DNA of 64,000 bases from a bacterium (GCA_006226965.1 SBGQ01000129.1:23202-87201), one strand, 5' to 3'. Shown: positions 7,874 to 43,515, numbered from the stretch's first letter. The notes: a model not told the origin generated them from the letters alone. Program-made: numbers and translations.

Positions 7874-8224
7874 AGTGCCACCTAACGTTTAGATGTTAAT
7901 CATAGTATGCGATTACCGCAAGTCGTGATATTTTTTTTCAAAAACGAATCGGTCTGACTCGTTAGCCTCTTGCCGCCCTTTCTGATGTGTAGTCAATAAA
8001 GGTTCTCACAATATCTACGAGCAACATACTATCAGATTGTTTGGCTATCCATAGCATTTTGATGCTAGAATGATTCGTTTTTTATCACATTATAATGTTA
8101 GCATCATGTTGATTTGATTGAAATCGCTGTTTTGATGTCAAACTTCACGAATTCCTGCGCATATTTTTTAAGTCTATTCCTTTTTTGTTCTGATACTTCT
8201 TTCAATTCAAACTATTTTTGAAGC

Positions 8225-23005: not shown

Positions 23006-24382
23006 ATGTTTCAAACCCGTTTATTACTACTTATTATCAGCTTGTTTTGGGTAAGCCCAGCTATTGCACAATTAATTCAAACTAAAAGTTATGAATTTAA
23101 TATGGGTTTTTATCTTGGCAGACCCGCCTATTGGGGTGATTACAATGGCGGTCTGTTTGGTTCGGAAACCGCTTATTCAACCGGAAGTACGCCTCAAAAA
23201 ACTTTTGGAACAGACATCAGTTTCGGCGCAGTAGCTTGGATTCCGATCAAATGGGGATTTAGTTTAAGACCATCTATTGAATACGGATCTTTGAATTACG
23301 TAATCAATGATAATGTTTTCCAACCCTATTTCATGAAAACGCCCTACCGAACAATGGCAGTAGCACTCCAGTATGATTTAGATTTAGGTGGATTTACTCC
23401 CTATTTAAGCTCAGGTATTGAGAGCTTGAAATTTACCGTTCCCGTTCAAAATGAAATGCCGGAGTTTCAATTTGATTCTCCAATTCAAGCTTATCAAAGA
23501 GATCAAGCCATTTCCATTCCTGTTACATTGGGATTCAATTTAGATGTCGGCACGTTTTCGTCGATATTTTTAGAGTCAACCATGCGATTTACAGAAACTG
23601 ATTTATTAGATAATTATACGCCTAATGATTCTAAATTCAGCTTTAAAAACGACATGATTTTTTCTTGGCAAGCCGGAATCAGAGTACAAGTTATAAATGT
23701 GATTAAACTTCTGTTTAACCCTGCAAAACCACAAAAACTTGCTCAATACACCGTGCCGCAAGTAACTGTTAAATGGGAACCCAATCTACCTGAATTAGCT
23801 CAGTTACCTTCAAAAAATCCGATTACAGAACCCATTGCAGAAGTTGAAACAGAAGCAACGAATACAAATGCTTCTATACCCACTCCGACTGTACCTGCAC
23901 CTATTCCTGTTGTTGATATTTCAACCCGTGTTTTTGACCGTGATGCGGAGTTAAAGAAAATGGAAGAGCTTCAAAAACAAAAAGAAGCTGAACCTGTTAA
24001 TACAGAACCAAAACCAAAAAGTAATTTAAATTGGGATCCGACCATTCCAATCATACAAACAAAAACCTCCACTGTGCCTGATGAAATTCCGGAAAATGGA
24101 TTTGTGGAAGATTCCGCCCCCGAAGGGTATTATGTGCAGGTATTTGCCACTGTTGGCCCAATAACTTCATCACGAGTTAGAAAACAGATTATCGAAGAAG
24201 CAAAACGCCAAAATTTACTCGCTGATCCTGAAAAACAAATCATGATTATGAAGAGAAAACAATTCTATGAAGTGCGTATCGGCGTATTCGATTCTTATGA
24301 GCAAACATTGCGTGTACTCGAAGCCATGCAAGGCATATATTTTGATTCATACTCTCTGATATATCTTCCCGATAATCAGTAG
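23006..24382 (+). CDS. Outer-membrane-like N-domain protein with Pro/Glu-rich linker and C-terminal SPOR domain
   Basis: There is a signal peptide (...SPAIAQ) and a beta-rich N-terminal half. The C-terminal SPOR-like motif reads GYYVQVFAT...YEVRIGVFDSYEQTLRVLEAMQ. Confidence 0.65.
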   Translation: MFQTRLLLLIISLFWVSPAIAQLIQTKSYEFNMGFYLGRPAYWGDYNGGLFGSETAYSTGSTPQKTFGTDISFGAVAWIPIKWGFSLRPSIEYGSLNYVINDNVFQPYFMKTPYRTMAVALQYDLDLGGFTPYLSSGIESLKFTVPVQNEMPEFQFDSPIQAYQRDQAISIPVTLGFNLDVGTFSSIFLESTMRFTETDLLDNYTPNDSKFSFKNDMIFSWQAGIRVQVINVIKLLFNPAKPQKLAQYTVPQVTVKWEPNLPELAQLPSKNPITEPIAEVETEATNTNASIPTPTVPAPIPVVDISTRVFDRDAELKKMEELQKQKEAEPVNTEPKPKSNLNWDPTIPIIQTKTSTVPDEIPENGFVEDSAPEGYYVQVFATVGPITSSRVRKQIIEEAKRQNLLADPEKQIMIMKRKQFYEVRIGVFDSYEQTLRVLEAMQGIYFDSYSLIYLPDNQ

Positions 24383-24384
24383 AT

Positions 24385-25491
24385 ATGACAAAACCATTCT
24401 TTATTGGATTTATTCTGTTTTTCCTTGGTTTGCAGGGCTCTTTAACTGCGCAAACCCGTAAGGAAAATACTTCCATTTTTCAACGATATTCGGCTGATAT
24501 TTCCTATGGTTTGCCTTTCTATGTAGGAGATTTTTATCGTCTTTTTTCAGATCCTCTTCCATACGACGGAAGCTTGCTTGGCGGAATTTCTCAATATAAT
24601 AACAGCACCGTTTCCGGTAGTTTAATAATTCCTTGGAAGTACAACATTTCATTTCGCTTAAAGGCTACACAAACAGTCATTTTTTACACTGAAGCACTTG
24701 CAAATGTGAATTTCAAAAATACCTTGTATGATTTCTCTTTACTCCCTCAATACAATTTTAATTTGAAGAAATTTAATATCTATGTCTTTGCCGGTGTAGG
24801 ATATCACGTCTCAACGGAAGCTACTATCTTCCAAACGATAAGCGATACTGAAATCGGGAATAATTACGGGCAAATTGTACGCATGAGTACAACAGGCGGG
24901 TTTGGGGTTGAATATAATGTTTGGCGTCAATTTAGTTTATTCATTGAAGGCGAATGGTACTTTACCGGTTCTGATCGATTTGACGGTTATAATGGGTTTC
25001 AGGCAGGACAATTAGAAAAACCTCAGGAAAAGGACTACTTCACTAGAGACCAGATAATTAGCGGACGATCTGGAATTAGAGTGTATTTCATGAACAGCAG
25101 CAAACTAGTGGCTGAACGTTCCTTTTCAAAAAAATCGAGTTCTTATTATAAAGACCCATACACCAAATTAACGCCGGAAGAAATCAAAAAAGAAAAAGAA
25201 GAAGAATTACCGGAAGAGTTAAAAAAATTGGGGGTTAAACGAAAACTGACAGGCTACAGTTTAGAAGTTAACCGAGTATTTACAGTAGATGAATTAAAGC
25301 GCCAAAAGTCATCCGGTGAAAAAGTAATTACATCCATTCATCAGGCATATCCGAATGCTCAGGTTCAACTTCTGCTTGAAGCAAATGGATTTACCATTCA
25401 TATTGGTGGATTTGGGAGTCTAAAAGAAGCTAAAAACGCAATGTACACCGTTCGTCAATACTACAATGCTGCGAATGTAAGAAAGCATTAA
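24385..25491 (+). CDS. Paralogous outer-membrane-like protein with C-terminal SPOR-like domain
   Basis: It has the same architecture as the upstream gene. The C-terminus reads GYSLEVNRVF...FTIHIGGFGSLKEAKNAMYTVRQ. Confidence 0.55.
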   Translation: MTKPFFIGFILFFLGLQGSLTAQTRKENTSIFQRYSADISYGLPFYVGDFYRLFSDPLPYDGSLLGGISQYNNSTVSGSLIIPWKYNISFRLKATQTVIFYTEALANVNFKNTLYDFSLLPQYNFNLKKFNIYVFAGVGYHVSTEATIFQTISDTEIGNNYGQIVRMSTTGGFGVEYNVWRQFSLFIEGEWYFTGSDRFDGYNGFQAGQLEKPQEKDYFTRDQIISGRSGIRVYFMNSSKLVAERSFSKKSSSYYKDPYTKLTPEEIKKEKEEELPEELKKLGVKRKLTGYSLEVNRVFTVDELKRQKSSGEKVITSIHQAYPNAQVQLLLEANGFTIHIGGFGSLKEAKNAMYTVRQYYNAANVRKH

Positions 25492-26484
25492 TTAATCTCG
25501 CTCCAGTAAGAAATTACATCCTCTAAGTTCTGAATCTGAAAGTCTGCCCAGCACTTCAAAACCACCGTCTTCGGTTGCAAATCCTCTATCCTCTGTAAGT
25601 ATAAAACTACATGAATAGATATTGGCTAAATCAATAACTCCGATTTGACCGACTTCCCCTGAAGGCATTTCTTCTAATGGATTTTCTGGATTTCGAATAC
25701 TTATTCTCATCCAATTTGGCGGATAAAATGGTTTTTGAGTTCCTTGCTTGTACGCTTGACTTAGCAATTCAGCCATACCGTATTCTGAATACAATTGAGA
25801 TGAATTACACGTGTAACGCTCTAATAATAAGTTCTGTAAATCTGATTTTGACATCTCTTTTCTGAATGTCTTCATCCCTCCTGTTTCAACAAGTATTGAA
25901 TCCGGATGTAATTTGATAGATTCAGATTCCGTAGCATCTAACAAACCAAAAGCGGCACCAAAAAGGATGACTGGTATGTCTGATTTTAGTTGCTCTTTTA
26001 ACGGAATATCCAGTTTTAAAAAAGCAGATGTAGTATCACCAACTTTCCTTTTTTCATCAATTAAAAATTGAATCATATAAATTAAGCTGGAATGCGGATT
26101 ATCTGCGTAACCCGGTAAATATGCTAGAATCGGCAGATTTTGAAAAACTGCATCAAAATGCTGACTTATCGATTTTTTATACAAGTCAGGAAATGGAACC
26201 CAATGTTTTGACCTACTCATTGCACTTGTGCCGCTGCTCATAAATACAAGCGCGTTCTGTGTAGTCACTTCATCAGAAATAAGCGTTTTTTCTTTGAATG
26301 CACCGATTGGTAATAAAGGAAAATCGATAGTATTGTTTTCTACCGAGTTTTTGTATCCGAGACTTTGAATGAACTTCTTAAAAACCGGATTCATTTCAGC
26401 TTGATATTCGAATACTAATGAAGCTCTCTCCTTAAATGAGATTTCATCATTAAATATTATGGTTGATAACGAATTCGAAGACAT
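25492..26484 (-). CDS. LuxE/PaaK-family adenylate-forming acyl-protein synthetase-like protein
   Basis: The N-terminal pattern IFN...FKERASLVFEYQAEMNPVFKKF...FPLLPIGAFK and the motif SSGTS...SKH match the Bacteroidota LuxE/PaaK-like family. Its start codon overlaps the flagellin stop codon (TAATG). Confidence 0.6.
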   Translation of the reverse strand: MSSNSLSTIIFNDEISFKERASLVFEYQAEMNPVFKKFIQSLGYKNSVENNTIDFPLLPIGAFKEKTLISDEVTTQNALVFMSSGTSAMSRSKHWVPFPDLYKKSISQHFDAVFQNLPILAYLPGYADNPHSSLIYMIQFLIDEKRKVGDTTSAFLKLDIPLKEQLKSDIPVILFGAAFGLLDATESESIKLHPDSILVETGGMKTFRKEMSKSDLQNLLLERYTCNSSQLYSEYGMAELLSQAYKQGTQKPFYPPNWMRISIRNPENPLEEMPSGEVGQIGVIDLANIYSCSFILTEDRGFATEDGGFEVLGRLSDSELRGCNFLLERD

Positions 26485-29276
26485 TATAACAAGCCGAGAA
26501 TAAAGCCCGGAGCTAAATTTGCCTGAGTTAGTGATGCCGTTTGGTATTGCTGTATAATTCTATTTTTCAGCATATTAGAATAGGTTTTTGCAAAATCTGT
26601 ATCTAACATTCTACTGCGAGCCGATTGGTTTGAGATTATACTGCTTCGCAACGAGTTTTCTCTGTTTGATAAACGATTCTGAATAATTCCAAACGAGTTT
26701 AGCTGATTATTTACACGGTTGATGGAATCGTCAACGTTTTGCAATAATTGGCTTGCTGTTGATTGAGTTAATGGTGTACCTGAACCAAAATCAACTAGAC
26801 CTAAACCAATAACGAGACCCGTATCTGATGCAAGTCGTAAAAACTGACTAATCTGGAAACTGGCATTTGAAAACGTTTTTGGCAAGCTATCAATATTATT
26901 CTCCGTAAATGAGGTTGACGCCGACATGCTGATTTGAGGTGAATTTTCCTCCTGAATACTAATTTGTCCGCCACTTAACGATGCAGAAAAGTTAACCGCA
27001 CCAATATTTCTGCCATCCAAAAATGTGACTAAATTACCGACAGTAAGATTTGAAGTATTCCCTGCTGCAACATCATTTAATGTAAAATTAAAATTCGCAG
27101 ATGCACCGGCTCTCGTTCTTAAATTAATTCGAATAACGTCATTTCCTTCTAAAGTTCCCCATCCATCAATATCTGTTAATCGAGTTCCTGAGTTTACGTT
27201 TACAGCACCGGATTGTAAGGTATTCGAAACCATAGCTTCACCACTGTAAGAAAACGTTAAGTTGATACCACCGTTATTCGGGCGGGGTAATTCAGTAAAA
27301 TCAGCGTTTGAGATACTCATGGCTATTGAGTTTCCTAAATTTGACGGATCTACTACAACTAACTCGTTCAAGGTTGCATTAAACGAAGCTGTTAATGTGG
27401 TTTGCGAATTTATTGCATTAATTAAATCATTTACTGTTGATGTGGATGCACCGCTTGAAGCGCCGGCAAAAACAAAGTTTACGTTTTGCGCCCCACCTAA
27501 ATTATCAGTTAAACGAATGGTGAGCGTGTCACCTGATTGAACATTCGTAAAATTGGGCAAACTGTTTAAAAGCGTTCCTGTGTTAAAAGCTCCTCCAAAA
27601 GTACCGTTCGAAGTAATAATTGTATCTCCGTAGGTTGTGGAGCCGGGATTTGAAAATGTACCGCCGCCGATATAATTCTGGTAGTTCATATTTAACAAGG
27701 TACCTTCACTCAGAGTATCCTCAGAAATTCTTAGCTGTCCACCTGAAATTGTAGCTGTAAAAGAAGAATTCGACGTAATGTAGTTTGCCAAATTCGCATA
27801 AGTATCATTCGGCGTTGCAAAGGTATAGGTTATTGTTTCAATAGTACCATCGTTTGCTCGAAGCTGAATATCGAAAGAATCGCCGGCTAAAAATCCAGTT
27901 CCAATTCCAGCAACAGCATCAGACAATTGAGTACCACCTGCAATTGCAGCTCCGGTATTTTGCCTAATTGATTGTGTGGTTTGTGCAAAACTAATATTTG
28001 AAACCGACGCAGCACCTGTATTCGTGCTATTTTCAATAAAACTTGACAAAGCCCTAAATGAACGCTGTGATAAATTCAATTCATCAATCTGAATTTGATT
28101 TGAAACTAAACTTGCAGAAAACTTAGCCCCGACTTGTGTATTAATCGCGTTGATTACATCATTTACAGTTGCATTTGATGTAGTTGCAGATGCACCGCTA
28201 AATGTGACAGTTACGGCATATGCGACATTATCTCTATCACGTAAATTAATGGTTAAGGTATCTTGTCCTTCAATTAAATTGAACTGATTAAGACTGTTAA
28301 TTTGAGTTGCTCCGGTTATAACGCCTGCCGATGTTAGTGATGAACGTAATGTTCCGGTTGCAGAATTAAAACCAAAACCAATTGTTCCGGTAGCACCGTC
28401 GGTATTTGGAGCTTCAACAAAGTTTCCAAAATTAACAGCTAGGGCATTTCCGGTTGTAACAACAGCTTCACGTACAATAATTTGTCCGTTACTGCTGGCG
28501 GAATAAGACGCCGTAAAGTCGCCGGTTCCGTTTATTGCATCTATTACATCTTGAATGGTATTCGTTGAAAGCTGCCCTTTTGATCCATTACCGGTAATAG
28601 TTGTAGTAACTTGTGTGCCATCACCGCGGGTTAAAATGATATCAAAAGTATCGCCTGCTTGAAAACCCTCGATTTGGTCGAGTGCATTTAGTTGAGTTGC
28701 TGTTGTAATAACTCCTGAAGAGGATAATGCTCCTAAAGATGTTACTTCTTCAACCTGAACATCTTGCGATGTTAAGTCGTCTGTGATAGTTAAACTTATT
28801 GTTTCGTTAAGTTGCTCGCCAACTTGGAATGTTGCAGAATATCCTTCCAGTAACAATTCCTGACCATTATAAACCGATTGATTTACAATTGAAGTGATTT
28901 CATTTGCAAGTCCGTTAATCGACTGTTGAATGTAACCCCTTTCTTCCGGTCCAGTTGCACCATTTGCAGCTTTTATGATGTATTTGCGAACCTGATTAAG
29001 AATATCGGCGATTTTTGTAAGACTCTGCTCCATAATGTCGATCATGCTTTTGGCGTCAGATACATTATGTTGTGCCTGTTCGAGTGCGGCTAAACGGGCT
29101 GATAACTTAGAGGAGATGGAGAATGATGCGGAGTCGTCTTCTGCTCGATTAATTCTTTTTCCGGTTGATAAACGTAAGAAGTCCTGTCCCAATTTCTTGG
29201 TAGTTCGATTAATCTCAAATCTCGTCAGATTGGATAAATCGTTAGTAGCAATCCGTGTAAAATCACCGAGTGACAC
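26484..29276 (-). CDS. Giant flagellin (930 aa) with conserved D0/D1 termini and a ~600-aa repeat-built variable region
   Basis: The N-terminus LRLSTGKRINRAEDDSASFSISSKL...NVSDAKSMIDIMEQSL...VYNGQELL matches the flagellin N domain. The C-terminus SFGIIQNRL...ARSRMLDTDFAKTYSNMLKNRIIQQYQTASLTQANLAPGFILGLL matches the flagellin C domain. The start is GTG, with AGGAG 4 nt upstream. Confidence 0.8.
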   Translation of the reverse strand: MSLGDFTRIATNDLSNLTRFEINRTTKKLGQDFLRLSTGKRINRAEDDSASFSISSKLSARLAALEQAQHNVSDAKSMIDIMEQSLTKIADILNQVRKYIIKAANGATGPEERGYIQQSINGLANEITSIVNQSVYNGQELLLEGYSATFQVGEQLNETISLTITDDLTSQDVQVEEVTSLGALSSSGVITTATQLNALDQIEGFQAGDTFDIILTRGDGTQVTTTITGNGSKGQLSTNTIQDVIDAINGTGDFTASYSASSNGQIIVREAVVTTGNALAVNFGNFVEAPNTDGATGTIGFGFNSATGTLRSSLTSAGVITGATQINSLNQFNLIEGQDTLTINLRDRDNVAYAVTVTFSGASATTSNATVNDVINAINTQVGAKFSASLVSNQIQIDELNLSQRSFRALSSFIENSTNTGAASVSNISFAQTTQSIRQNTGAAIAGGTQLSDAVAGIGTGFLAGDSFDIQLRANDGTIETITYTFATPNDTYANLANYITSNSSFTATISGGQLRISEDTLSEGTLLNMNYQNYIGGGTFSNPGSTTYGDTIITSNGTFGGAFNTGTLLNSLPNFTNVQSGDTLTIRLTDNLGGAQNVNFVFAGASSGASTSTVNDLINAINSQTTLTASFNATLNELVVVDPSNLGNSIAMSISNADFTELPRPNNGGINLTFSYSGEAMVSNTLQSGAVNVNSGTRLTDIDGWGTLEGNDVIRINLRTRAGASANFNFTLNDVAAGNTSNLTVGNLVTFLDGRNIGAVNFSASLSGGQISIQEENSPQISMSASTSFTENNIDSLPKTFSNASFQISQFLRLASDTGLVIGLGLVDFGSGTPLTQSTASQLLQNVDDSINRVNNQLNSFGIIQNRLSNRENSLRSSIISNQSARSRMLDTDFAKTYSNMLKNRIIQQYQTASLTQANLAPGFILGLL
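26949..28718 (-). repeat. Five divergent tandem coding modules (period about 121-130 aa) inside the flagellin variable region
   Basis: The recurring module core is G(A/T)TQL..L......G(D/Q)(T/S)(F/L).I.L....G........F..........T(V/I).D(V/L)I.AIN......F.AS......(I/L).(I/V).E. Cores begin near aa 187, 317, 444, 565 and 693. Confidence 0.7.
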
Positions 29277-29301
29277 AGTACTCCTTTGTTATCACCTAAG
29301 C

Positions 29302-29309
29302 TTATCGGC
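29302..29309 (-). promoter_or_regulatory. Sigma-28 (FliA)-type -10 element upstream of the flagellin gene
   Basis: The minus strand reads GCCGATAA, an exact match to the sigma-28 -10 consensus, 25 nt upstream of the GTG start. The -35 region (TTTAA, 14-15 nt upstream) matches TAAA only weakly. Confidence 0.5.
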
Positions 29310-29478
29310 AAAAGCGACAACAATTAAATACTAAACGATGATTTTTTAGTGTTTTTTTTCTGATTTTTTCCGGCAATGAAATATCTATAATCTATTACGC
29401 GACAATTGCTTACAAAAATCAACCACTTAGAAGAGTGTTAATTTTTAGAAATTAATATTTCGGGCGAAGATATTTGAT

Positions 29479-32400
29479 TTAATTTTCTACCTGAACGGTA
29501 AACGTTACAGTTCCTGAACCGCCGGATTCAAGAACTCCTCCAAAAGTCCAAGTGATTATTCCCGAAGTCCCAACACTTGGCGAAACCGTTACACAATTTG
29601 TCAAACTATTAGGAAGTGCTCCATATCCCACAGAGACAAATGTAGTATATGAAGGTGTAGCGTCTCGAATTACAATTGTATTTAAACTTCCCGAACTTAC
29701 ATTTGTATAAGTAACGGTGTATGTTATTTGCTCACCCGGCAATGCCGTGGCTTTGTTTGTTGTTTTCACCAATTCCAAACCGGCACTAGATGACAAATTC
29801 ACGGAAATCTTATCTTGATTGGTGTAATCTAAAACCACCACTGGCGAAGTTCCGCTTAATGAGTGTGAAACATCCACATCAACCAAAGCTGAACCACCGA
29901 TAGGGGCATTTGATGGAATTGAAACTTTCAAAATAAGTGCAACAACTTGGTCTGTTATCACACTACTTGTTCCGCTATAAACACCTTCCCCCGAATCCAG
30001 AACTCCATTGGCATTAGTATCGGTATATAAAATTGCGCTCCACCCTGCCATATTTGGATCCGGAGTAATTGTTGTTGTAATTGATATCGAACCTGGAGAG
30101 TTTGCAGTGAACTGATGCGGGATAAACACCGCAGTACCAGGAAGCGATTCTTTCTGCATCCCAATTTCAAGTCGGGATTTTGTAACAATTCCTAAGACAG
30201 AACCTGTGTAGGAAGTACCAGAGCTAACGGTAAACGACAGCTTAGTGTTTGGCAAGTCCATTGTACCTGAAGTTGTTCCAACATTTGAAGAAACAGGAAC
30301 AGTTCCGTTAGGTATTGAGCTAATTACTTTTACTGATGTCCCATTATAAGTATGAGGTATCCACAAAGTCACAGAGCCGTCACCATTTGTATGCTGTTCG
30401 TCAATAGTGGTGAGTTCATCTGACGTTGTTAATGCAATTTGGATGGCATCTACACCTAATTCGGTAGCTTCTTTTACAGCATTATATGCAGTAGCGCCAC
30501 TTTTTCCGTTGTCACGAAATACAGTGTAGCTCATTTTCGAACCGTTGTACAAACCAAAATTGATTCCTGTTAATTCGTAACTATTTACGATTAAGCTTGA
30601 AACTTGCAGATTTCTTTCTGTAGCAATCCAGCTTGTAGGTGATGTTGCCGTAACATCTGCGTCTAAATTATTCGTATCAACAATTAAGGAATAGGTGCCG
30701 GGTGAAACATTTGAAAAGCTAAATATTCCGGTTACAATGTCAACAGTAGCCTTATCTACGGTTACACCTGTTTGTATCAACTTTACGTATAACGTTTGCC
30801 CCGTTCCTGTTTCATCAAATTCCCGATTTGAGTTATGATTCGCATCTGAATACACTGAACCTGACAATGGATATCCACCGCTTCTAAAGTCCAAATCACC
30901 AGTGCCATCAGAGTTTGATAGCGTTACTGATGGATTGTTAACTCCTGCATTTGCAGGACCAAAAGTTGCATCATTTGAATCTATTGAATCATCTAATCCA
31001 TCATTATCCGCATCAGTTCCGCTTAAAGCAGCTAAACCGGATTCATTCACATCTAATAAAGAATCATTATCGGAATCGGTATCTAAATAATCAGGTGTTG
31101 TATCCGAATCTGTATCGACAGGACTTATATATGTTCCGCCATTATCCGCATCAAAACTATCATCTAAGCCATCATTATCCGTATCAGTTCCTGCTAAATT
31201 GATATAACCAGCTGTTGTTTGTGCTTCAATGATATCCGGAATTCCATCTCCATCGGAGTCCAAATCTCTAAAATTGGGTATTCCGTCGGCATCAGTTTGT
31301 GTAGTCCCTTCCACTGAATCTCGAATTCCGTCTCCATCTGAATCTAAATCCAAATAATCTACATGTCCGTCACCGTCGGTATCAACAACAACAATAAATG
31401 CACCGCCATTATTCGGGTCATAGGCATTATCTAAACCATCGCCGTCGGTATCTGAACCGCTTGCTGCCACAAAAGCTGAGGTTGATTGCGCTTCTACATT
31501 ATCTGAAATCGAATCGTTATCTGAATCGGTATCGCGATAATTAGGAATTCCGTCACCATCAAAGTCAGTTGTTCCTTCTACCGAATCACGAATTCCATCG
31601 CCATCAGAATCACTGTCTAAGTAGTCGGCGATTCCATCACCATCGGTAGAAACCGGAGTTAAATAGGTTCCGCCATTATCCGGGTCATAAGCATTATCTA
31701 AACCATCGCCGTCGGTATCTGAACCACTTGCCGCAATATAACCGGCTACGGTTTGGGCTTCGATATTGTCTAAAATTCCATCTCCGTCGGAATCCGTATC
31801 TCTAAAATTGGGTTGCGCATCTCCATCCTGATTGTTATTTAATTCGATTGAGTCACGAATACCGTCATTATCAGAATCTATATCTAAGTAATCATATTTA
31901 CCGTCGCTGTCGGTATCAACTAAAATTATGTAAACGCCACCGTTATCAGGGTCGTACGCATCATCTAAACCATCGCCGTCTGTATCGTTTCCGCTTGGCG
32001 CAACGTAAGCAGCCGTTGACTGTGCTTCAATATTATCGGGAATACCATCGCCGTCGGAATCGGTATCTCTATAGTTTGGAATACCGTCGCCGTCAAAATC
32101 CGCGGTTCCTTCTACCGAATCACGAATACCGTCACCATCAGAATCTAAATCGAGATAATCGTCTAAGCCGTCACCGTCGGTATCAATCAAAACGATATAC
32201 GTTCCGCCGTTATCAGGGTCATAGGTGTTATCTAAACCATCAGCATCGGTATCAACACCCGAAGGTGCAACGAATGCCGCAACAGATTGTGCTTCAATGT
32301 TATCGGAAATACCGTCACCATCAGAATCTAAGTCTAAGCGGTTTACAATTGTATCTCCGTCCTGATCATTATCTTCGGTTTCGTCCACATCTAAAATACC

Positions 32401-33483
32401 GTCATCGTCATCATCAATATCTAAGTAATCGGCAATTCCGTCGCCGTCAGAATCCTGAATGGTACTGAAAGGTTCTGAAATCGACATGGGAACTGAAAAC
32501 GCTAATAAATCTTCCCAAGTGGTATTTAAATCTCCGTTTTTATCATGAACACCACCAAAATCACCGTTTAATGAGTTTGCTTGTGTCGCCGTTACAGCGA
32601 TATACCTTACCAAGGTGTTGATGGTAATATTGATTCCTTTCTCAATAGCCAGAAAGTTTTTCAAATGTGTCCATGGAATAGATGTACTTACTAATACATC
32701 TGTTTGACCATCTGCATCGAGATCGTAATTTGTGGATTCGGCATAGGTTGTTGCTGATGCAAAAACTACTGCCCAATTATACGATGCATACGGTGTATTT
32801 ACAGTATTTCGCGTGTATGTAAAACTCGATGTACTTGGAGAGTCATTTGCACCCGTTCCTGTTCCTACTACTTCGGTTCGTTTTGTACCTGCTCCGCCAT
32901 CAAACGAAATAAAACAATCTAAAACACCATCGGAGTTTGCATCGACACCTACTAAGGTATAAATCGTAATTCTAGGAGGCGTTCCTCCGCCCGTTCCTTC
33001 AGCACCCAATCTCCAACGAACAGAAATTACGTCATCAGAATCATTGGCTTCACCTGCTGTTCCGCCATCATAGTAATGGAAATAAATTAAGGGGTCGGTT
33101 ACGTTTCCAACTAAATCCACGTCTTTTCTGTTGGACTGAGTGTCATCGTAAGGGTCGAAATTGGCACCGTTTAAGATGGGAAACCAATCAGCTGTGCTTC
33201 CCGATAGGTTTACCGGAGTTGAAGCCAAAGCCATGGGCGCAAAAAATGACTCCGGAGTAATATTCAACAACTCTTTTTGTCCGGCATGATTCCATCCGGC
33301 TAAGGTAAATGCCATAAGCATGGTATCATCCATATTATTATAGTTGATACTCTTTTCATGCATTTCACCGGCATTCATCAGCAACATTAAAGCAAAAGCG
33401 ACATTCCACTTAAGTTTAAACCGAGGTTTATGTTGTGTTCTTTTTTTCATCAATACATTCCCTTTTGCCATTATCTCCACCAT
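29479..33483 (-). CDS. Giant secreted protein: unknown N-domain, thrombospondin type-3 Ca-binding repeat array, SdrD-B/prealbumin-like Ig modules, C-terminal DUF11 domain
   Basis: It contains dozens of DxDxDGxxDxxD motifs and an SdrD-B-like segment (GSVYSDANHNSNREFDETG...GTYSL). The terminal DUF11 motif is LPGEQITYTVTYTNVS...IRDATPSYTTF...GSGTVTFTVQVEN. The likely true start is MKKRTQ at 33450. Confidence 0.8.
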   Translation of the reverse strand: MVEIMAKGNVLMKKRTQHKPRFKLKWNVAFALMLLMNAGEMHEKSINYNNMDDTMLMAFTLAGWNHAGQKELLNITPESFFAPMALASTPVNLSGSTADWFPILNGANFDPYDDTQSNRKDVDLVGNVTDPLIYFHYYDGGTAGEANDSDDVISVRWRLGAEGTGGGTPPRITIYTLVGVDANSDGVLDCFISFDGGAGTKRTEVVGTGTGANDSPSTSSFTYTRNTVNTPYASYNWAVVFASATTYAESTNYDLDADGQTDVLVSTSIPWTHLKNFLAIEKGINITINTLVRYIAVTATQANSLNGDFGGVHDKNGDLNTTWEDLLAFSVPMSISEPFSTIQDSDGDGIADYLDIDDDDDGILDVDETEDNDQDGDTIVNRLDLDSDGDGISDNIEAQSVAAFVAPSGVDTDADGLDNTYDPDNGGTYIVLIDTDGDGLDDYLDLDSDGDGIRDSVEGTADFDGDGIPNYRDTDSDGDGIPDNIEAQSTAAYVAPSGNDTDGDGLDDAYDPDNGGVYIILVDTDSDGKYDYLDIDSDNDGIRDSIELNNNQDGDAQPNFRDTDSDGDGILDNIEAQTVAGYIAASGSDTDGDGLDNAYDPDNGGTYLTPVSTDGDGIADYLDSDSDGDGIRDSVEGTTDFDGDGIPNYRDTDSDNDSISDNVEAQSTSAFVAASGSDTDGDGLDNAYDPNNGGAFIVVVDTDGDGHVDYLDLDSDGDGIRDSVEGTTQTDADGIPNFRDLDSDGDGIPDIIEAQTTAGYINLAGTDTDNDGLDDSFDADNGGTYISPVDTDSDTTPDYLDTDSDNDSLLDVNESGLAALSGTDADNDGLDDSIDSNDATFGPANAGVNNPSVTLSNSDGTGDLDFRSGGYPLSGSVYSDANHNSNREFDETGTGQTLYVKLIQTGVTVDKATVDIVTGIFSFSNVSPGTYSLIVDTNNLDADVTATSPTSWIATERNLQVSSLIVNSYELTGINFGLYNGSKMSYTVFRDNGKSGATAYNAVKEATELGVDAIQIALTTSDELTTIDEQHTNGDGSVTLWIPHTYNGTSVKVISSIPNGTVPVSSNVGTTSGTMDLPNTKLSFTVSSGTSYTGSVLGIVTKSRLEIGMQKESLPGTAVFIPHQFTANSPGSISITTTITPDPNMAGWSAILYTDTNANGVLDSGEGVYSGTSSVITDQVVALILKVSIPSNAPIGGSALVDVDVSHSLSGTSPVVVLDYTNQDKISVNLSSSAGLELVKTTNKATALPGEQITYTVTYTNVSSGSLNTIVIRDATPSYTTFVSVGYGALPNSLTNCVTVSPSVGTSGIITWTFGGVLESGGSGTVTFTVQVEN
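30994..32328 (-). repeat. Five tandem 267-bp (89-aa) coding repeats of TSP3-type calcium-binding motifs
   Basis: Repeat starts (DSDGDG/DSDNDS) fall at aa 386, 475, 564, 653 and 742, an exact 89-aa period. The unit reads DSDGDGIxDNIEAQxxAxxVAxSGxDTDGDGLDNAYDPDNGGxYIxxVDTDGDGxxDYLDxDSDGDGIRDSVEGTxDFDGDGIPNYRDT. Confidence 0.85.
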
Positions 33484-36400
33484 CTCGGCTTAATGTCGTA
33501 TGTCTGTTGAATCACTTTTACGTTTTCAACATTTTTTATTTCTATATCAACACGTCTGTTTGAAGCTCTGTCCATTTCTGTGGTTTCAGGAGCATTTACA
33601 TCACGACGAACATCCAATAACATTCTTCCGGGATGAATTCCTTTTGATTTCAGGAATTCGAATACCACATTGGTTCTTTTCCAAGCCATTTCGTTGTTTC
33701 TGTTTAGGCTTGTATTAGAATCGGAACCACCGGTTAACAATAATTCAGCGTCTGGGTGTGCTTTTAAGAACATTACCAAACGCATTAAAATAGCTTGCGA
33801 TTTGTGGTCGAGTTTATCACTCGCAAATGCGAAGTGAACGGCATTGGCCACATACGGTAATGAACGCAACGGAGATTGTAGTATCGGTAAATCGTTTCTT
33901 TCGTTTTGGATTTCAACCATGCGATACAATTCTTGCGGAATGTAGCCTACTTTTTCGCCTGCTAAATCATCGTTTTGTTCAAGAATTTCTAAATCGTCCG
34001 GTGGCATATACGAGAAGAATATCGCAGAATGAATAGCAGAAGCGCCGTATTGACGTTCATCATATCTGTTCGATCTTCTGAATTCGAATTGCATACGCTC
34101 TGCCGGAACACCTGCATCTTCTAAGTAGGTAATTACAGCTTTTGCCCGTTCAGTTACTAAGGTTTCGCCTGATTTATCATAACCAAACACCACTAAATTC
34201 ACTTCTGTTTTTAATTTTAAAATGGCTGCAATTCTAGCCAACAGAAGTTTATTCAAATCAGATAATTCTGAATTATTCATTTTAAAGTGAACACGATCGG
34301 CAACTGAATTTAATTCGGTTGATAAGAGGTAATTCCAGAATTTCGCAAAAGCCAATTCGCGTTTTTCGATTTGTAAGTCTTCTACCTGAGTTACTAAATC
34401 TACATCAGCACCTTGAAAATTTACCCCAAATTCAACACGTCTGTTTTCTGCTTCGTGTACTATATTAGTTTCTTTTGCAATACGTAATTCTGTTTTCCCT
34501 TTAGGGTCTAAGATGATTCGGGTTGAATCCACACCAGTTGCTATTAAATAGGCTTTTACAGCTTCTGCTCTTCTCATAGATAAATAGTAGTTATAAGAAG
34601 TTGTGTTTCTGGAATCCGTGTGTCCGGCAAGGTTTATAGTTGCATTGTCTTTTTGATGCATGAACCAAGCCATTCTGTTAATCATTGTAGCGGAGATTTC
34701 AGAAATGGCAGCTTTATTCAATCCGAAGTGAACATCTTTTGGCAATACAAAACGCTCACGTAAAATTGCAGGAGTAGGAACTGTAGCAATGAGTGAAGGA
34801 ATAACAGGTTTTGGCATTTCGAATGATGGAACATCACAACCACAATCCAAATCTGGGTAATCGGCTGGTTTAGACTTTGTAACGCGGAAAATTTCTTGCT
34901 CGTCAAATTTGTAGTGTAAACTCACATAAACACCATGAGCCGTAAAATCAGCACTTGCTAAATCTTGATCTCTATACCCTAAGAAGTTGTAACCCGTTAC
35001 CAATCTCAAGTTTCTTGCAACAATAAATCCTACTTCAGCGCCTATTCCTAATTGATTTGAAGTAAATGATTCGTTTGTTAATAAAGCTGTAGAAGCGCCG
35101 ACATCAAAACGACGAGATAAATCGTAGGTAGCACGCAATCCTAATAATTGTAAAAATGACTGACTTTCGAAATTATTCGAAGTTTCGGAAGCTAATTTTC
35201 CTGCCCAACGTGCAGTCAGATAAAACGGATCGTTTGGCTGCCAGTTTATATGAGAAGAAACCATGTGAACGGAACGCTCTAAACCGTCATTGAAACCATT
35301 GTTTTGCTCAAAAATGTATTCGTAACGTCCCAAAGCATTCCAACGAGATTGCTCAGATTCACGATACGCAAAACCGGCTCTTAAACGCTCAAGAATGCGA
35401 TCTGTTGACCCACCTTTTGTAAGAGCCATGGTATTTTTTCCTAAGAATGACCATTGGTCGGATAATCGGTGCGCATATCCTAATGAAGAGATATAACTGT
35501 TTTCTTGTTTTGAGAATCTCGTTTCAATACGTCCTGATGCTTTCCAGTTCGGATTTGCGGTGTAATCTAAGCCTAATGAAATTGACGTCCCTTCATTCAC
35601 GGCAACCCCGGCAATACTAAATACACGTTCTAAACCTGCTGTTAATCCTAAACCTTCACGCAACATAAATTGATTACGAACACCCATTGAAGCCTGAGTC
35701 GTTCTTCCGTCGAATGCATCGCGTGAACGATATTCAGTATATACACGTCCGTTTCGCATATAACCGGCATCAATACCTACAACGGTATTATTTTGTTGTT
35801 GTTGATCATTGAGAGAATAACGACCGGTTAAGCTGGATAAAAACTCATGACGTGCATATAAGCGTCCGCGAGCACCTAAGGTATAATCAGCACCGAGAGC
35901 TGCAATTCTTCTTTCAATTGATGCTAAACTTTGCTCGTATTCGCCATACACTTCGGCAGAGGTAAGGAATGGTAAACGAGAAATCAATTTACTGCGAACA
36001 CTACCTTGCTCAGTTGACGGAGCCGAACCTTTTTGGTCGTCTTTCATGTAACGAACGCCCAATTCAGCTTGTAAACCGTAAGCAAAACCACGTTGTACGT
36101 TTAACATAGCACCTTGGCGAACAGCGCCGGTTGTGTCGTTAGTAGATAATAAAGCTTCTGTTTGAAGAGTAGTTTTAGAACCTAAACGAACTGTTCCGCG
36201 CATTCCTGCTTCAGTTCTTGCACCGCCCAGCATACTAAACGGATTCACAAAATCTTCAGACGTTTTACCTGCAAAAACACGTCCGTTAAATACATTTCCC
36301 TGATGTTTGTACTCAACTCTTGCTCCGTAACCCTCACCTTTCGAATCTTTATCCGTGCGGGCAACTTCTGTTACTAATGTTCCTGATTCTCCTAGTTTGA

Positions 36401-39400
36401 TGCTTGAGTTTGCACTCACTAAGTTATAGGAATCTGCCGGATCCAGATCCACGTGTGCAGTTGCACCTACTTCGATATTATCGGTTACTTTTGCCTGAGC
36501 ATCGGTTGTTGCAACTACGAATTTTTCGAGTGTTTCTTCTGTTTCGTACGAAATTCTGATAAATCTCGGATTTAAATCTTCATCTAAACTGAAAACCGGA
36601 GCATTAAAGAAAATGTGTCCTGTAAATTGCTCTAAGGTGTAATCACGGAAACGAAACATCGTTTTAGAGTCAATAATTACATCAGGTTGATTTCTGTCTC
36701 TGGTAATAATTTCGATTCGTTCGCTGTTTTCGCGAACGTTTTCATGTTGTAATCGATAAGGGCCTGAAATTCCCAATGCAGGAAGTTCTTCAATTACCTG
36801 ACGAGAATCAGCTAAACTGACAGATGCATTTGCTTTGATTTTTGATGTTTCGTAATGCCCTTTAACACCAGTTAAATTTCTGTTGAACTGACCCAAATTT
36901 CTAGCCGGAGATTGATCCATCGTGTTAAAATCTCCGTACATGGCAAAATGTTTGTTTTTATCAACACGAACAAAAAGACGACCGGAAGACTGCGCATCGA
37001 AACCTTTTACGGAAGCATCACCATAAATAGGATAATATTCGTCCGGTTTAATATCGCGGAACATGCTTCTGTCTTCTTTTTCAGAATCGAAAGAAGCCGT
37101 TAATAAATAACTGCCTAAGATTTTACCCTTAATAAAGAAAGCCGTTCTTGCTGATGCACTGAAATTATCTGAACCTGCATTTAAGCCGCGCAATTCTTCT
37201 TCAAAAACATCACTTTGGTTTACTGCATCAATGCGGAAACCATTTTTAAGGCGAAGCGCACCTTCAATAATACCAGCTGCAATTAAAGGACGTAAGTTTG
37301 GTGTAAAGTGAATTTCTGAGCTCGATTTCAGATTACCTGATTTTACGACAACTTTACCAACTCCGGGTTCTAAAGGCGCTTCAACAAAAGCAAATCCGAC
37401 ACCGCCTTCAATAAATTGTTGTGTTCCGGCTTCAATTTCGTTCAAATCTTGTGTAAGCAATTGTCCGACTTCTATATCTAATGTGATCGGAGTTCTGGAT
37501 TTAACTAAAATGCCGTTTTTGTCAAACGCTTCAATTTTAATTTCTGCAACGGTTTTACCGTCAGCCGGAATCACTTCATTTAAAACAGTAATAGCGAAAT
37601 GGTCAACTAAACCCGGAGCAAAAACGTGAATTATTTCTTCACCGCGTTTATTTCCGAATGGGTCAAATACCTGAACTGTGATTTCATTTTTTCCCTCGTT
37701 TAATTCGATACCTACATATTCCCAACCTTCAACAGTAGGAGAATTCGCTTTAATACCAATTCTGGATTCAGGAATTTCAATACCATTTACAAAAAGCATG
37801 AACTTACTACCGACAGCGCCTTTAACCATTACATTTGTAATTGGAGTATTTAATGAATCGCCGTCGTTTAAGTTTAAGTAACCCAATTCTTTATCAGCGA
37901 TTGACAGTAAGTCTTCCAAGGAAGCATCTGTAGTTTCTACAGATAAAGTTTTCCAATACGAATTTGATTCCACTTTTTTGATTATCGGCTTATATGCTGT
38001 TGGATTTGCGACATCATTCGCTTTCGAACCGACAATACCAGAACTTGGTAAGGCTTTGTTTTCACGATTATCTCTGCGAATTTGAGCATCCATTCTGGAT
38101 TTTAACCCAAGAGCTAATTCCGACGGCAAATCGGTCATTTTCGTAAAACGAGCTCTGATTTCTGGTAAAATATCTTGCGTGTCGTCACAAATAGCGAAAT
38201 CGGCTTTATGTAATTCTCCTTTTTGTAAATCCACAAAACGGGAAGAAGCATCGAAAGCGTGACGGTTATCTAATACTTCTAAACCGCCACCGATTGGTAT
38301 TGTAGTAACATCTAATTTTAACACATGGCGTTTTGGAGATACACCATAGAAACTGTATTTACCTAAAGCATCGGTTTCAATATAGTTACCATTTTCCATG
38401 TAAATGCGCACATTGGGTACGCCCGGTTCGCCGACATCCTGAATTTTGTTTTTGTTTTTATCGTAGAACACTTTACCGATGATGTACGCATCGTCATCAA
38501 AAACACCTTTATCTACGCGGACAGTTACATCGGCTTCGTTTGAAATTTTATCAATTAATTCATCTGCTGTTGCCACAGCTACGTTTTTACCGTCGCTGCT
38601 AATCGCTGCTGATGTTGCCTGTAAACGGTATGTGAGCGATTTTACTTCTCCAACTTCTAAATTGCCAATTGAGAATTCTAAAATCGGGCCTCTGCCACCT
38701 GTCGGGTCTGTAATGGTAGAATCATCAAGCTGAGCGCTTCCTTTTATATAAGCAAAACCATAAGGCAAGTTATCAGTAACCAATACATTCGTAATATCAT
38801 TTTGAATGAGGTTGCTCACTTTAATTTCGTAATTCACAAATCCGCCCAAATCAACCCATTCGCGATCGGCTTCTTTTTCCATATTCATGGCTAATAAACC
38901 ATTTACATCCAACGGAATATCAAAACGTGCCGGACCATTCGGCGCTGAAATCGTAAATTCACGTCCCCAAGAACCGTCTGTCTCAATATTTCTGCCTTGA
39001 GGTAACACCGCTGCACTTAATTGAGACGGGAAGTTATATTGTGCGGGAGAAACGATTTCAATTCGGTATTTACCAGTATTCAAATATGGGAATGTAAATT
39101 CGCCATTTGCTTCTGTTGTGATTTCGTTCGGAAGGGTTTCAATACCTTTCGAATCGAATACTTGTGCAGGAACTCCTTCGCTAGAGTTTGTAACGTCTAA
39201 AATTCTTACTAAAGCACCCGGAATTGGTCTGTTTGATTCTGAATCGAATACTACACCAACCGGATTTACATAAACTCTTGCAATTACTCGAGCTGTAGCA
39301 CCACTTCTGCCACAGTTCAATAATTCGGCAACCAACTCATCGTTTTGAGTTGTTTCTAAGATTTGGTTTTGTTGAATAACAGGGAAATCCAAATAATTCC

Positions 39401-40694: not shown

Positions 40695-40857
40695 GCTTTG
40701 TTTAAAAGTTGAGCCGGAGTTTTCACACCCCGACTCAATGGGATGTTTGATGTTTGAGATATTTTTTTGGTTCGGAAGTCTTTATCGAGCTCTTTGCTTA
40801 AAAGACCCCGATTGAAGAGGAATGCGGCCGTTCAGACCACATTCCACCGATGTTTAA

Positions 40858-43506: not shown

Positions 43507-43515
43507 TGCAATGCG

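What the first reader, a model, noticed from the sequence alone, without database searches (positions are those of the whole stretch)
26484..29276. 930-aa giant flagellin whose variable region is built from five ~125-aa tandem modules, isolated from other flagellar genes
Both termini are clearly flagellin D0/D1. The N-terminus has STGKRINRAEDDSASFSIS and the C-terminus has ...RMLDTDFAKTYSNMLKNRIIQQYQTASLTQANLAPGFILGLL. Between them, aa 187-776 consist of five related modules with cores starting near aa 187, 317, 444, 565 and 693. Each module has a conserved core: G.TQL..L......G(D/Q)(T/S)(F/L).I.L....G, then a ...T(V/I).D(V/L)I.AIN... helix-like segment, then ...F.AS......(I/L).(I/V).E. Typical flagellins are 270-500 aa with one or two unique outer domains. 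Giant flagellins have been reported mainly from marine Gammaproteobacteria. A repeat-built outer region would decorate the filament with five copies of one domain per subunit, which fits a sheath-like or adhesive filament surface. No fliD, fliS, flaG or other flagellar gene is in the window. The gene instead lies directly downstream of the surface-protein operon, and I saw no convincing terminator in between.
Basis: partly seen in the sequence, partly recalled or inferred. Interest (0 to 1): 0.65.

Follow-up and report, generated by a model that had tools for sequence, protein, structure and literature searches.

The report
Large five-module accessory flagellin of Balneolales
This is a real 930-residue flagellin gene from an uncultured Balneolales-type bacterium whose surface-exposed middle is five diverged copies of a domain already known from flagellar proteins, so it is an unusually large but recognisable member of the known "large/giant flagellin" class rather than a new kind of system.

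Summary
Between them lie five homologous ~120-aa modules (aa 182-303, 312-431, 439-544, 560-678, 688-810).

The modules are divergent copies of the Pfam "Flagellin hook IN motif" domain, which also occurs as repeats in giant FliD caps. The family is small and restricted to Balneolales-like genomes, with 3 to 8 modules per protein. Its outer region is as conserved as its core.

The core is about 50% identical to the ordinary ~280-aa flagellins of the same lineage. Those sit beside fliS and fliD (usually flaG too) in every genome that also has a giant ortholog.

The gene has its own sigma-28-type promoter (TTAAT-N15-GCCGATAA), and the same motif precedes most flagellin genes of the order. Its position next to the surface-protein operon is not conserved.

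Best reading: an accessory structural flagellin that thickens or decorates the filament. Large flagellins with duplicated outer domains are already described, so this is a new member of a known kind, of moderate interest. Filament incorporation is not shown.

The parts
26484..29276 (-). Large flagellin gene: 930 aa, 97.9 kDa, GTG start, no Cys, pI 4.4.
   Evidence: ORF list and translation. Pfam Flagellin_N plus Flagellin_C. The AF2 model matches solved flagellar filaments by Foldseek, best 9au6_A at E 2e-13. Composition.
28776..29276 (-). N-terminal D0/D1 core (aa 1-167).
   Evidence: 50% identical over 167 aa to the 283-aa flagellin of locus L012, which lies next to fliS, fliD and flaG. This is within the range seen between short flagellins of the order.
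28368..28733 (-). Module 1 (aa 182-303), Flagellin_IN-type alpha/beta domain.
   Evidence: AF2 pLDDT for the module region is about 75-92.
27984..28343 (-). Module 2 (aa 312-431).
   Evidence: Modelled on its own from a 57-sequence module alignment with pLDDT 88.9: hairpin, helix, hairpin.
27645..27962 (-). Module 3 (aa 439-544). It is the most divergent module and is duplicated in the 6-module relatives.
27243..27599 (-). Module 4 (aa 560-678). It gives a sub-threshold Pfam Flagellin_IN hit.
   Evidence: PF07196 E 0.009, 16.6 bits against a cut-off of 22.7. Also.
26847..27215 (-). Module 5 (aa 688-810).
26487..26744 (-). C-terminal D1/D0 core (aa 845-930).
   Evidence: Pfam Flagellin_C. 45% identical to aa 196-281 of the short flagellin in L012.
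29302..29327 (-). Sigma-28 (FliA)-type promoter, TTAAT-N15-GCCGATAA. The -10 element is at 29309-29302, 25 nt before the start codon.
   Evidence: Sequence. The GCCGATAA octamer occurs only 5 times in the window. The motif T[TA]AA[AGT]-N14-17-CGATAA lies upstream of all 7 giant-family genes and of 59 of 84 flagellin genes in the fetched loci, against 105 sites in total in 1.67 Mb.
29281..29286 (-). Shine-Dalgarno AAGGAG, 4 nt before the GTG start.
   Evidence: Sequence. The GTG start is conserved in 7 of 7 family genes.
25492..26484 (-). LuxE/PaaK-like adenylate-forming gene (330 aa). Its start overlaps the flagellin stop by 1 nt. It is a conserved neighbour, and a functional link is not established.
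   Evidence: Pfam LuxE at 39.2 bits and PDB 7xc6_E LuxE at E 7e-9. It follows the flagellin in L001, L002, L003, L006 and L007. The same LuxE-LuxC pair exists without any flagellin in Balneola vulgaris and Gracilimonas.

Best explanation
The gene encodes an accessory structural flagellin of a flagellated Balneolales-type bacterium.

Shown:
- It has a complete flagellin D0/D1 core of the local Balneolales type.
- A ~677-aa insert replaces the ~28-aa D1 loop of the ordinary short flagellins.
- The insert is five diverged Flagellin_IN-type alpha/beta domains. Each is a beta-hairpin, the 'IN' helix, then a beta-hairpin plus further strands.
- The gene carries its own sigma-28-type promoter, shared with the lineage's other flagellin genes.

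Inferred:
- It is transcribed with the late flagellar regulon.
- It is kept unfolded (it has no cysteine) and exported through the flagellar type III system.
- It polymerises through D0/D1 under the FliD cap, either with the short flagellins or as its own filament segment.
- The five acidic, Ser/Thr/Asn-rich modules (net charge -31) then form a thick outer layer around the core.
- The outer modules are as conserved between species as the core. This suggests they make ordered contacts (a proteinaceous outer sleeve that changes filament diameter, stiffness or surface chemistry) rather than serving as a hypervariable antigenic surface.
- The conserved GTG start suggests lower translation than the ATG-started short flagellins, so this is probably a minor or specialised subunit.
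For: - Flagellin_N and Flagellin_C score above the Pfam cut-offs.
- The best NCBIfam matches are flagellins.
- The AF2 full-length model (pLDDT 77.5) matches solved flagellar filament subunits at E 2e-13 to 1e-7.
- The core is 50% (N-terminal) and 45% (C-terminal) identical to a short flagellin adjacent to fliS, fliD and flaG. That is within the spread seen between short flagellins.
- A sigma-28-type promoter is conserved in all 7 family genes and is strongly enriched upstream of flagellin genes.
- Genomes with giant orthologs also carry short-flagellin clusters with fliS and fliD: L006/L015, L007/L012, L008/L034 and L009/L013.
- Sixteen family members show E <= 2e-137 to the query; the 14 aligned here have a mean column identity of 51%. 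Modules show 44-53% pairwise identity and the core 49-50%.
- The module profile otherwise hits only flagellar axial proteins, namely giant FliD and FlgE with Flagellin_IN repeats.
- The protein has no Cys and the gene's GC content is native.
- Balneola vulgaris is flagellated and motile (PMC5167729).
- Thick filaments built from giant flagellins have been shown experimentally elsewhere (PMC6248924).
Against: - No expression, export or filament data exist for this protein or any family member.
- Only 64 kb of the source genome was visible. Its own flagellar apparatus, fliA and other flagellins could not be checked.
- Several cultured Balneolaceae with flagellar genes are described as non-motile with an 'incomplete' pathway (PMC9909488), so flagella may be decaying in parts of the order.
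- The gene is never next to fliS, fliD or flaG.
- Its stop codon overlaps a non-flagellar gene (luxE-like). This is atypical for a highly expressed flagellin, which is usually followed by a terminator.
- Inter-module geometry in the model is uncertain (pTM 0.43).
Confidence: 0.7

Rival explanations
1. It is a flagellin-derived protein that no longer serves motility. It would be exported (by the flagellar type III system or otherwise) and act as a free or surface-bound adhesin or matrix fibre, possibly in cells that have lost swimming.
For: The gene is solitary and away from flagellar genes in all loci. The outer region is large, acidic and conserved. Some Balneolaceae with flagellar genes are non-motile (PMC9909488). 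In the window the gene lies next to very large surface proteins.
Against: D0 and D1, the polymerisation and export parts, are complete and as conserved as in working flagellins. The flagellin-type sigma-28 promoter is conserved. Relatives keep fliS, fliD, flaG and cheA. The surface-protein neighbourhood is not conserved.
Confidence: 0.12
2. It is functionally tied to the LuxE-like enzyme encoded immediately downstream. For example, the flagellin is acylated, or the pair forms a dedicated two-gene module.
For: The stop and start codons overlap by 1 nt. The adjacency is conserved in five loci whose flagellins are only 43-75% identical to the window protein. LuxE-family enzymes activate fatty acids and transfer them to protein (family knowledge; PDB 7xc6_E hit).
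Against: The LuxE-like gene belongs to a very widespread family: the search, capped at 8000 scored candidates, returned 7994 with E <= 0.001. In Balneola vulgaris and Gracilimonas it forms a LuxE-LuxC pair beside leuS with no flagellin nearby. The 6-module relatives L004 and L005 lack it. The simplest reading is that the flagellin gene was inserted upstream of a housekeeping pair.
Confidence: 0.05
3. It is a hook-filament junction protein (FlgL/HAP3) or another minor axial protein, not a filament flagellin.
For: JGI names two family members 'flagellin-like hook-associated protein FlgL'. TIGR02550 FlgL gives a partial hit. Flagellin_IN repeats are common in the hook-associated protein FliD.
Against: The FlgL model scores 72.8 bits against a cut-off of 127.2, and flagellin models score higher. 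The core is 50% identical to genuine flagellins next to fliS and fliD and shares their promoter. The JGI name is the generic COG label.
Confidence: 0.03
4. It is the last gene of the upstream DUF11/OmpA surface-protein operon and part of that cell-surface system.
For: Same strand, a 202-bp gap and no terminator-like hairpin by the scan.
Against: The gene has its own promoter and Shine-Dalgarno sequence in the gap. No homolog of the surface proteins lies near any ortholog, and the upstream genes differ between loci.
Confidence: 0.03

Closest known systems
Giant and large flagellins of Oceanospirillales (Bermanella marisrubri, Oleibacter marinus; Thomson et al. 2018, PMC6248924)
   Same: Both have a canonical D0/D1 core plus a very large central insert that grew by internal tandem domain duplication. 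In those species the protein is shown to build thick filaments. No enzyme domain is present in either.
   Different: Those proteins have two tandem 'DE' regions plus a DX insert. This one has five copies (3-8 across the family) of a ~120-aa Flagellin_IN-type module. The lineage is different: Balneolales, which is not among the phyla listed in that paper. Here the large flagellin is an extra, solitary gene beside arrays of short flagellins. Homology of the modules to the DE region was not tested.
Geovibrio thiophilus flagellin (792 aa, cryo-EM 9au6; Sanchez et al. 2024, PMC11532411)
   Same: It is the best structural match of the full-length model (Foldseek E 2e-13). Both have a multi-domain outer region that covers the core and a strongly acidic surface.
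   Different: The G. thiophilus outer domains are different folds, including an Ig-like D3, not a five-fold repeat of one helix-containing domain. The alignment is dominated by D0/D1 (TM 0.16-0.18).
Pfam PF07196 Flagellin_IN ('flagellin hook IN motif') domains in flagellins, FliD and FlgE, including giant FliD caps
   Same: The module profile hits giant FliD proteins (1039-1655 aa, 6-8 stretches) and FlgE, and the hit positions coincide with Pfam Flagellin_IN hits. Flagellin_IN is the only Pfam family matched by several modules (6 of 57, best E 1.9e-5). The best relevant fold matches of one module are FliD structures 6sih_A and 6iwy.
   Different: The window's own modules stay below the Pfam cut-off (best 16.6 bits against 22.7). 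The module is about 120 aa, against 55 aa for the Pfam motif. Fold matches are not statistically significant (E about 0.4-0.6).
Multi-flagellin filaments with major and minor subunits (for example Helicobacter FlaA/FlaB, Campylobacter, Caulobacter, Shewanella; from general knowledge)
   Same: Several flagellin paralogs occur per genome, some encoded away from the main cluster, under late-class flagellar promoters.
   Different: In those systems the paralogs are similar in size. Here the paralogs differ more than three-fold in mass (about 30 kDa against 98 kDa).

Membership tests
Bacterial flagellin (FliC/Hag) | N-terminal D0/D1 helical region (Pfam PF00669) above the gathering score | tested here: met
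   92.8 bits against 26.6, aa 9-142.
Bacterial flagellin (FliC/Hag) | C-terminal D1/D0 helical region (Pfam PF00700) above the gathering score | tested here: met
   44.5 bits against 23, aa 845-930.
Bacterial flagellin (FliC/Hag) | Curated NCBIfam flagellin model reached at its cut-off | tested here: not met
   The best is NF005294 at 123.9 bits against a cut-off of 387. All 24 hits are below their cut-offs because only the termini match. These whole-protein, equivalog-type models are expected to fail when the insert is 677 aa of unrelated sequence.
Bacterial flagellin (FliC/Hag) | Predicted fold of the core matches solved filament subunits | tested here: met
   37 PDB matches at E <= 0.001, almost all of them flagellins from filaments or crystals (9au6, 8sug, 7sn4, 6x80 and others).
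Bacterial flagellin (FliC/Hag) | Belongs to the flagellar regulon (late-class sigma-28 promoter) | tested here: met
   TTAAT-N15-GCCGATAA lies 25 nt upstream of the start. The motif is conserved in 7 of 7 family genes and in 59 of 84 flagellin genes, against 105 sites in 1.67 Mb. Promoter activity itself was not tested.
Bacterial flagellin (FliC/Hag) | Flagellar export, hook and cap genes in the same genome | not testable with these tools
   Only the 64-kb window is available and it holds no flagellar gene. In the four genome assemblies that hold a giant ortholog, fliS and fliD are present next to short flagellins; flaG and cheA were also found in three of them.
Bacterial flagellin (FliC/Hag) | Polymerises into the flagellar filament | not testable with these tools
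   Needs EM or mass spectrometry of filaments.
Giant flagellins sensu Thomson et al. 2018 | Length over 1000 aa ('large' is over 800 aa) | tested here: not met
   At 930 aa it is 'large'. Family members P0011 (1038 aa), P0009 (1050 aa), P0162 (1236 aa) and P0163 (1285 aa) exceed 1000 aa. Definition from PMC6248924.
Giant flagellins sensu Thomson et al. 2018 | Central insert enlarged by internal tandem duplication | tested here: met
   Five homologous modules, and 3-8 across the family.
Giant flagellins sensu Thomson et al. 2018 | Insert homologous to the Oceanospirillales DE region | not tested
Pfam PF07196 Flagellin_IN | Match at or above the gathering score (22.7 bits) in the window protein | tested here: not met
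   Only module 4 matches, at 16.6 bits, E 0.009. Nothing appears in the whole-protein scan.
Pfam PF07196 Flagellin_IN | Family-level homology of the module to Flagellin_IN domains | tested here: met
   A module of family member P0163 scores 48.9 bits on PF07196 and lies inside an A3 module. Six of 57 modules hit PF07196, best E 1.9e-5. The module profile hits FliD and FlgE at their IN repeats, E 4e-14 to 1e-9.
FlgL / HAP3 | TIGR02550 at its cut-off (127.2 bits) | tested here: not met
   72.8 bits, N-terminal 132 residues only.
Enzymatic flagellins (flagellinolysin type) | Peptidase or other enzyme domain in the outer region | tested here: not met
   No enzyme family was found in whole-protein or per-module Pfam scans. 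Nothing was found in PDB by sequence profile.

The most novel reading that the evidence does not exclude
The five to eight IN-type modules form an ordered, species-conserved protein sleeve. The giant flagellin would then be a deliberately low-abundance (GTG-started, sigma-28-driven) specialised subunit that builds a distinct filament segment or a second filament type alongside the short flagellins. Module number (3 to 8) would act as an evolutionary dial for filament thickness and surface chemistry. Because the same module is expanded in giant FliD caps of other bacteria, there would be a general 'IN-domain outer layer' shared by flagellar axial proteins. A more extreme sub-variant is that the co-transcribed LuxE-like enzyme acylates this layer.
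Probability: 0.15. Interest if true: 0.55.

Novelty: new member of a known kind. Interest (0 to 1): 0.35.

Why it matters
If it is confirmed in a filament, this would be a clean natural example of a flagellin whose outer layer is a tandem array of one small domain, with copy number varying from 3 to 8 between close relatives. The lineage (Balneolales, FCB group) is one whose flagella are almost unstudied. The unusually conserved outer region and the coexistence with about 30-kDa outer-domain-less flagellins make it a good cryo-EM target. It could show how outer domains pack, how tandem domains solve the flagellin 'out-and-back' topology problem raised by Thomson et al., and how very different subunit sizes share one filament. 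It does not change the current picture of flagellin diversity, which already includes hundreds of outer-domain architectures (PMC11532411).

Tried and rejected
- Whole-protein self-BLAST returned only the identity hit. I replaced it with segment-against-segment BLAST and leave-one-out HMMs.
- I first read the long matches (L010, L013-L015, L025, L027-L031) as further giant flagellins. ORF extraction showed they are tandem arrays of 2-6 short flagellin genes. The giant family is confined to L001-L009.
- I considered a functional flagellin-LuxE pair because of the 1-nt overlap and conserved adjacency. I down-weighted it after finding the same LuxE-LuxC pair without a flagellin in Balneola and Gracilimonas.
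- I tested the link to the upstream surface-protein operon by searching all loci for homologs and found none.
- I looked for recent duplication at the DNA level and found none.
- I looked for horizontal-transfer signs: the gene's GC is 39.2% against 38.0% for the window, and the core identity is typical of the order. There is no such signal.
- The NCBI contig of 127,893 bp, which would extend the view, was not retrievable. Only a 48-kb Logan contig was returned.


Full report
**1. What is there**

The ORF at window 26484..29276 lies on the minus strand. It is 930 aa with a GTG start. Pfam finds Flagellin_N at aa 9-142 (92.8 bits, cut-off 26.6) and Flagellin_C at aa 845-930 (44.5 bits, cut-off 23), and nothing else. 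NCBIfam's best matches are flagellin models. All are far below their whole-protein cut-offs because only the termini match. FlgL (TIGR02550) scores lower, at 72.8 bits against a cut-off of 127.2. The protein is 97.9 kDa, has pI 4.4, contains no cysteine, and is 33% Ser+Thr+Asn.

**2. The five modules are real**

- Segment-against-segment BLASTP gives E-values down to 8e-15. Nine of the ten module pairs have E <= 0.006, which connects all five; only M1-M5 is not significant.
- The five align over their full ~120 residues.
- To avoid circularity I built one HMM per module position from orthologous modules of other family members, excluding the window protein. Each HMM finds all five modules in the window protein, with the worst independent E-value at 1.5e-5.
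- HMM boundaries are 182-303, 312-431, 439-544, 560-678 and 688-810.
- There is no tandem repeat at the DNA level. Each module position is orthologous across species. The duplications are therefore old.

**3. What the module is**

- The full-length AF2 model has mean pLDDT 77.5, with most of the module region at about 75-95.
- A single module modelled from a 57-sequence module alignment reaches pLDDT 88.9.
- Each module is a beta-hairpin, one helix carrying the 'AIN' motif, a second hairpin and further strands.
- PDB sequence-profile and Foldseek searches give nothing significant. The only thematically relevant Foldseek hits are FliD cap structures: 6sih_A (probability 0.85) and 6iwy.
- The module profile was searched against 1.84 billion representative proteins. 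Only 127 hits had E <= 1e-3 and 12 had E <= 1e-30.
- The strong hits sampled with Pfam (P0162, P0163, P0168, P0169) and those already in the family are flagellins of the same family, with 3, 5, 6, 7 or 8 modules (a 586-aa fragment shows 4). The next-best hits that I scanned with Pfam are giant FliD proteins (1039-1655 aa) and one FlgE carrying Pfam Flagellin_IN repeats, and the positions coincide.
- One module of family member P0163 scores 48.9 bits on PF07196.
- Flagellin_IN is the only Pfam family hit by several modules: 6 of 57, best E 1.9e-5.
- The window's own module 4 is sub-threshold at 16.6 bits.
- The modules are therefore divergent, extended Flagellin_IN domains. This domain type is restricted to flagellar axial proteins, and Pfam itself describes it as usually repeated (my recollection of the Pfam entry).

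**4. Whose gene it is and whether the lineage has flagella**

- The exact protein is NCBI 'MAG: hypothetical protein EP331_10705 [bacterium]' on a 127,893-bp contig.
- Related loci in species-representative genomes are almost all Balneolales or Rhodothermales: Fodinibius, Gracilimonas, Aliifodinibius, Balneola, Rhodohalobacter. The window also encodes T9SS-tailed proteins.
- ORF extraction showed that the usual flagellins of this group are short (most 275-330 aa, a few 400-506 aa) and often occur in tandem arrays of 2-6 genes. The large family is confined to loci L001-L009.
- In locus L012 the 283-aa flagellin is followed by fliS, fliD, flaG, a sigma-54 activator and cheA.
- Homologs of fliS and fliD flank short flagellins in 26 loci. 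These include loci from every assembly that also holds a giant ortholog: L015 with L006 (75% ortholog), L012 with L007, L034 with L008, and L013/L016 with L009.
- The window protein's aa 1-167 are 50% identical to L012's aa 1-167, and aa 845-930 are 45% identical to its aa 196-281.
- That 50% lies inside the range seen between short flagellins of different loci (median 56%, 10th-90th percentile 45-73%).
- The large flagellin is thus a local flagellin core in which a ~28-aa loop is replaced by a 677-aa insert.
- Gene GC (39.2%) matches the window (38.0%).
- Flagella and motility are documented for Balneola vulgaris (PMC5167729). Fodinibius and Aliifodinibius isolates, however, are reported as non-motile with an 'incomplete' flagellar pathway (PMC9909488). 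That is a genuine caveat.

**5. Regulation and neighbourhood**

- The 202-bp gap upstream contains TTAAT-N15-GCCGATAA (29327-29302). An AAGGAG Shine-Dalgarno sequence sits 4 nt before the GTG.
- GCCGATAA is the textbook -10 element of sigma-28/FliA promoters (established knowledge). It occurs only 5 times in the window.
- A relaxed motif, T[TA]AA[AGT]-N14-17-CGATAA, lies within 180 nt upstream of all seven family genes and of 59 of 84 flagellin genes in the fetched loci. There are only 105 such sites in 1.67 Mb counting both strands.
- The gene therefore has its own flagellar-regulon-type promoter.
- The scan finds no terminator-like hairpin in the gap, so read-through from the upstream 1334-aa DUF11 protein gene cannot be excluded.
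- That neighbourhood is not conserved. Orthologs have Lon protease or RecQ upstream, and no homolog of the surface proteins is found near any of them.
- All seven family genes start with GTG, whereas the short flagellin genes shown start with ATG.

**6. The downstream gene**

- The flagellin stop overlaps by 1 nt the start of a 330-aa LuxE/PaaK-like adenylate-forming enzyme gene (PDB LuxE 7xc6_E at E 7e-9).
- This adjacency recurs in L002, L003, L006 and L007.
- The enzyme family is very widespread, however: 7994 of the 8000 scored candidates had E <= 0.001.
- In Balneola vulgaris and Gracilimonas sp. Q87 the LuxE-LuxC pair sits beside purD and leuS with no flagellin nearby.
- The 6-module relatives lack the adjacency.
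- I read this as insertion of the flagellin gene upstream of a housekeeping pair. Co-transcription is possible, and a functional link is unproven.

**7. Conservation pattern**

Among nine five-module orthologs, mean pairwise identity is 44-53% for the modules and 49-50% for the D0/D1 segments. Ordinary flagellins have a hypervariable middle (PMC7018530), so here the outer region appears to be under constraint comparable to the core. The outer region is strongly acidic, with net charge -31 and pI 4.05. This resembles the negatively charged G. thiophilus filament surface discussed in PMC11532411. That flagellin (9au6, 792 aa) is also the best structural match of the full-length model.

**8. Mechanism**

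The shown steps are:
- flagellin identity
- the five-module Flagellin_IN architecture
- the flagellin-type promoter
- coexistence with canonical flagellin, fliS and fliD clusters in relatives.

The inferred steps are:
- export through the flagellar type III system
- polymerisation via D0/D1, alone or mixed with short flagellins
- formation of a thick, ordered, acidic outer layer that alters filament diameter, mechanics or adhesion
- lower abundance because of the GTG start.

Confidence in the accessory structural flagellin reading is about 0.7. The rivals are a non-motility secreted fibre or adhesin (0.12), a functional LuxE pair (0.05), FlgL (0.03), and membership of the surface-protein operon (0.03).

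**9. Comparison with the known, and novelty**

- Large and giant flagellins are known from many phyla. Some grew by tandem duplication of an outer 'DE' region, and they build thick filaments (PMC6248924).
- An AlphaFold survey sorted flagellin outer regions into 682 structural clusters and noted variable domain numbers (PMC11532411).
- Flagellin_IN is an existing Pfam family.
- Specific to this case are:
  - the five-fold (3- to 8-fold) tandem array of that module inside a flagellin
  - the rarity of the family
  - its Balneolales host, which is not listed among giant-flagellin phyla in PMC6248924
  - the conserved outer region
  - its status as a solitary extra gene beside arrays of ~30-kDa flagellins.

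I classify it as a new member of a known kind. It is a good structural-biology target but not a surprise to specialists, so I score interest at 0.35.

Noticed in passing
window 25492-26484 (-); L002 12796-13785; L003 12792-13769; L007 12842-13852; L060, L061: A LuxE/PaaK-like gene starts 1 nt inside the flagellin stop codon and follows the flagellin in five loci. In Balneola and Gracilimonas the same gene forms a LuxE-LuxC pair near leuS with no flagellin. In the window and in L006 the LuxC partner is not adjacent: two convergent genes with no Pfam match (23006-24382 and 24385-25491, + strand) abut it instead.
   Followed up: partly
window 29274-29276 and the starts of L002, L003, L004, L006, L007, L008: All seven genes of the large-flagellin family use a GTG start codon, while the short flagellin genes whose starts were displayed use ATG. 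This may be a conserved way to keep translation of the large subunit low.
   Followed up: partly
window 29479-44019 (-): A run of very large surface-protein genes (167, 882, 2407 and 1334 aa) with DUF11 repeats, SdrD_B and prealbumin-like domains and three OmpA-type peptidoglycan-binding stretches. There are also weak CglD/MtsC-like (thrombospondin-type) hits. The 1334-aa protein has internal repeats around aa 411-781 (48-64% identity).
   Followed up: partly
window 44247-48452 (+): A 1401-aa hybrid sensor (Reg_prop beta-propeller, Y_Y_Y, HisKA, receiver, AraC HTH) is transcribed divergently from the surface-protein gene run. It is a plausible regulator of that run.
   Followed up: no
L012 6841-9928 (+): An 837-aa protein with two GT2 glycosyltransferase domains and a 200-aa TPR protein lie directly upstream of the short flagellin-fliS-fliD-flaG cluster. 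They are candidates for a flagellin glycosylation system in this lineage.
   Followed up: no
L010, L011, L013, L014, L015, L030, L031, L041, L043: Balneolales and Rhodothermales genomes carry tandem arrays of 3-6 short flagellin genes (275-330 aa), most with their own TTTAAG-N16-CGATAA promoter. The Rhodothermales arrays (L041, L043, L047) lack this motif, so they may use a different promoter type.
   Followed up: partly
window 5649-6659 (-) and 56198-59077 (-): Two proteins carry the T9SS C-terminal sorting domain (Por_Secre_tail), one with a lamin-tail domain. The organism therefore combines a Bacteroidota-type T9SS with flagellin genes.
   Followed up: no
P0170-P0175 (database proteins, not in the window): Giant FliD cap proteins of 1039-1655 aa contain 6-8 Flagellin_IN-type repeats related to the window's modules. 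The same domain has therefore been expanded independently in the filament cap of other bacteria.
   Followed up: partly
window 49782-50129 (+): A free-standing gene for a 23S rRNA intervening-sequence protein family member (PF05635) lies between an HD-associated protein gene and polA.
   Followed up: no
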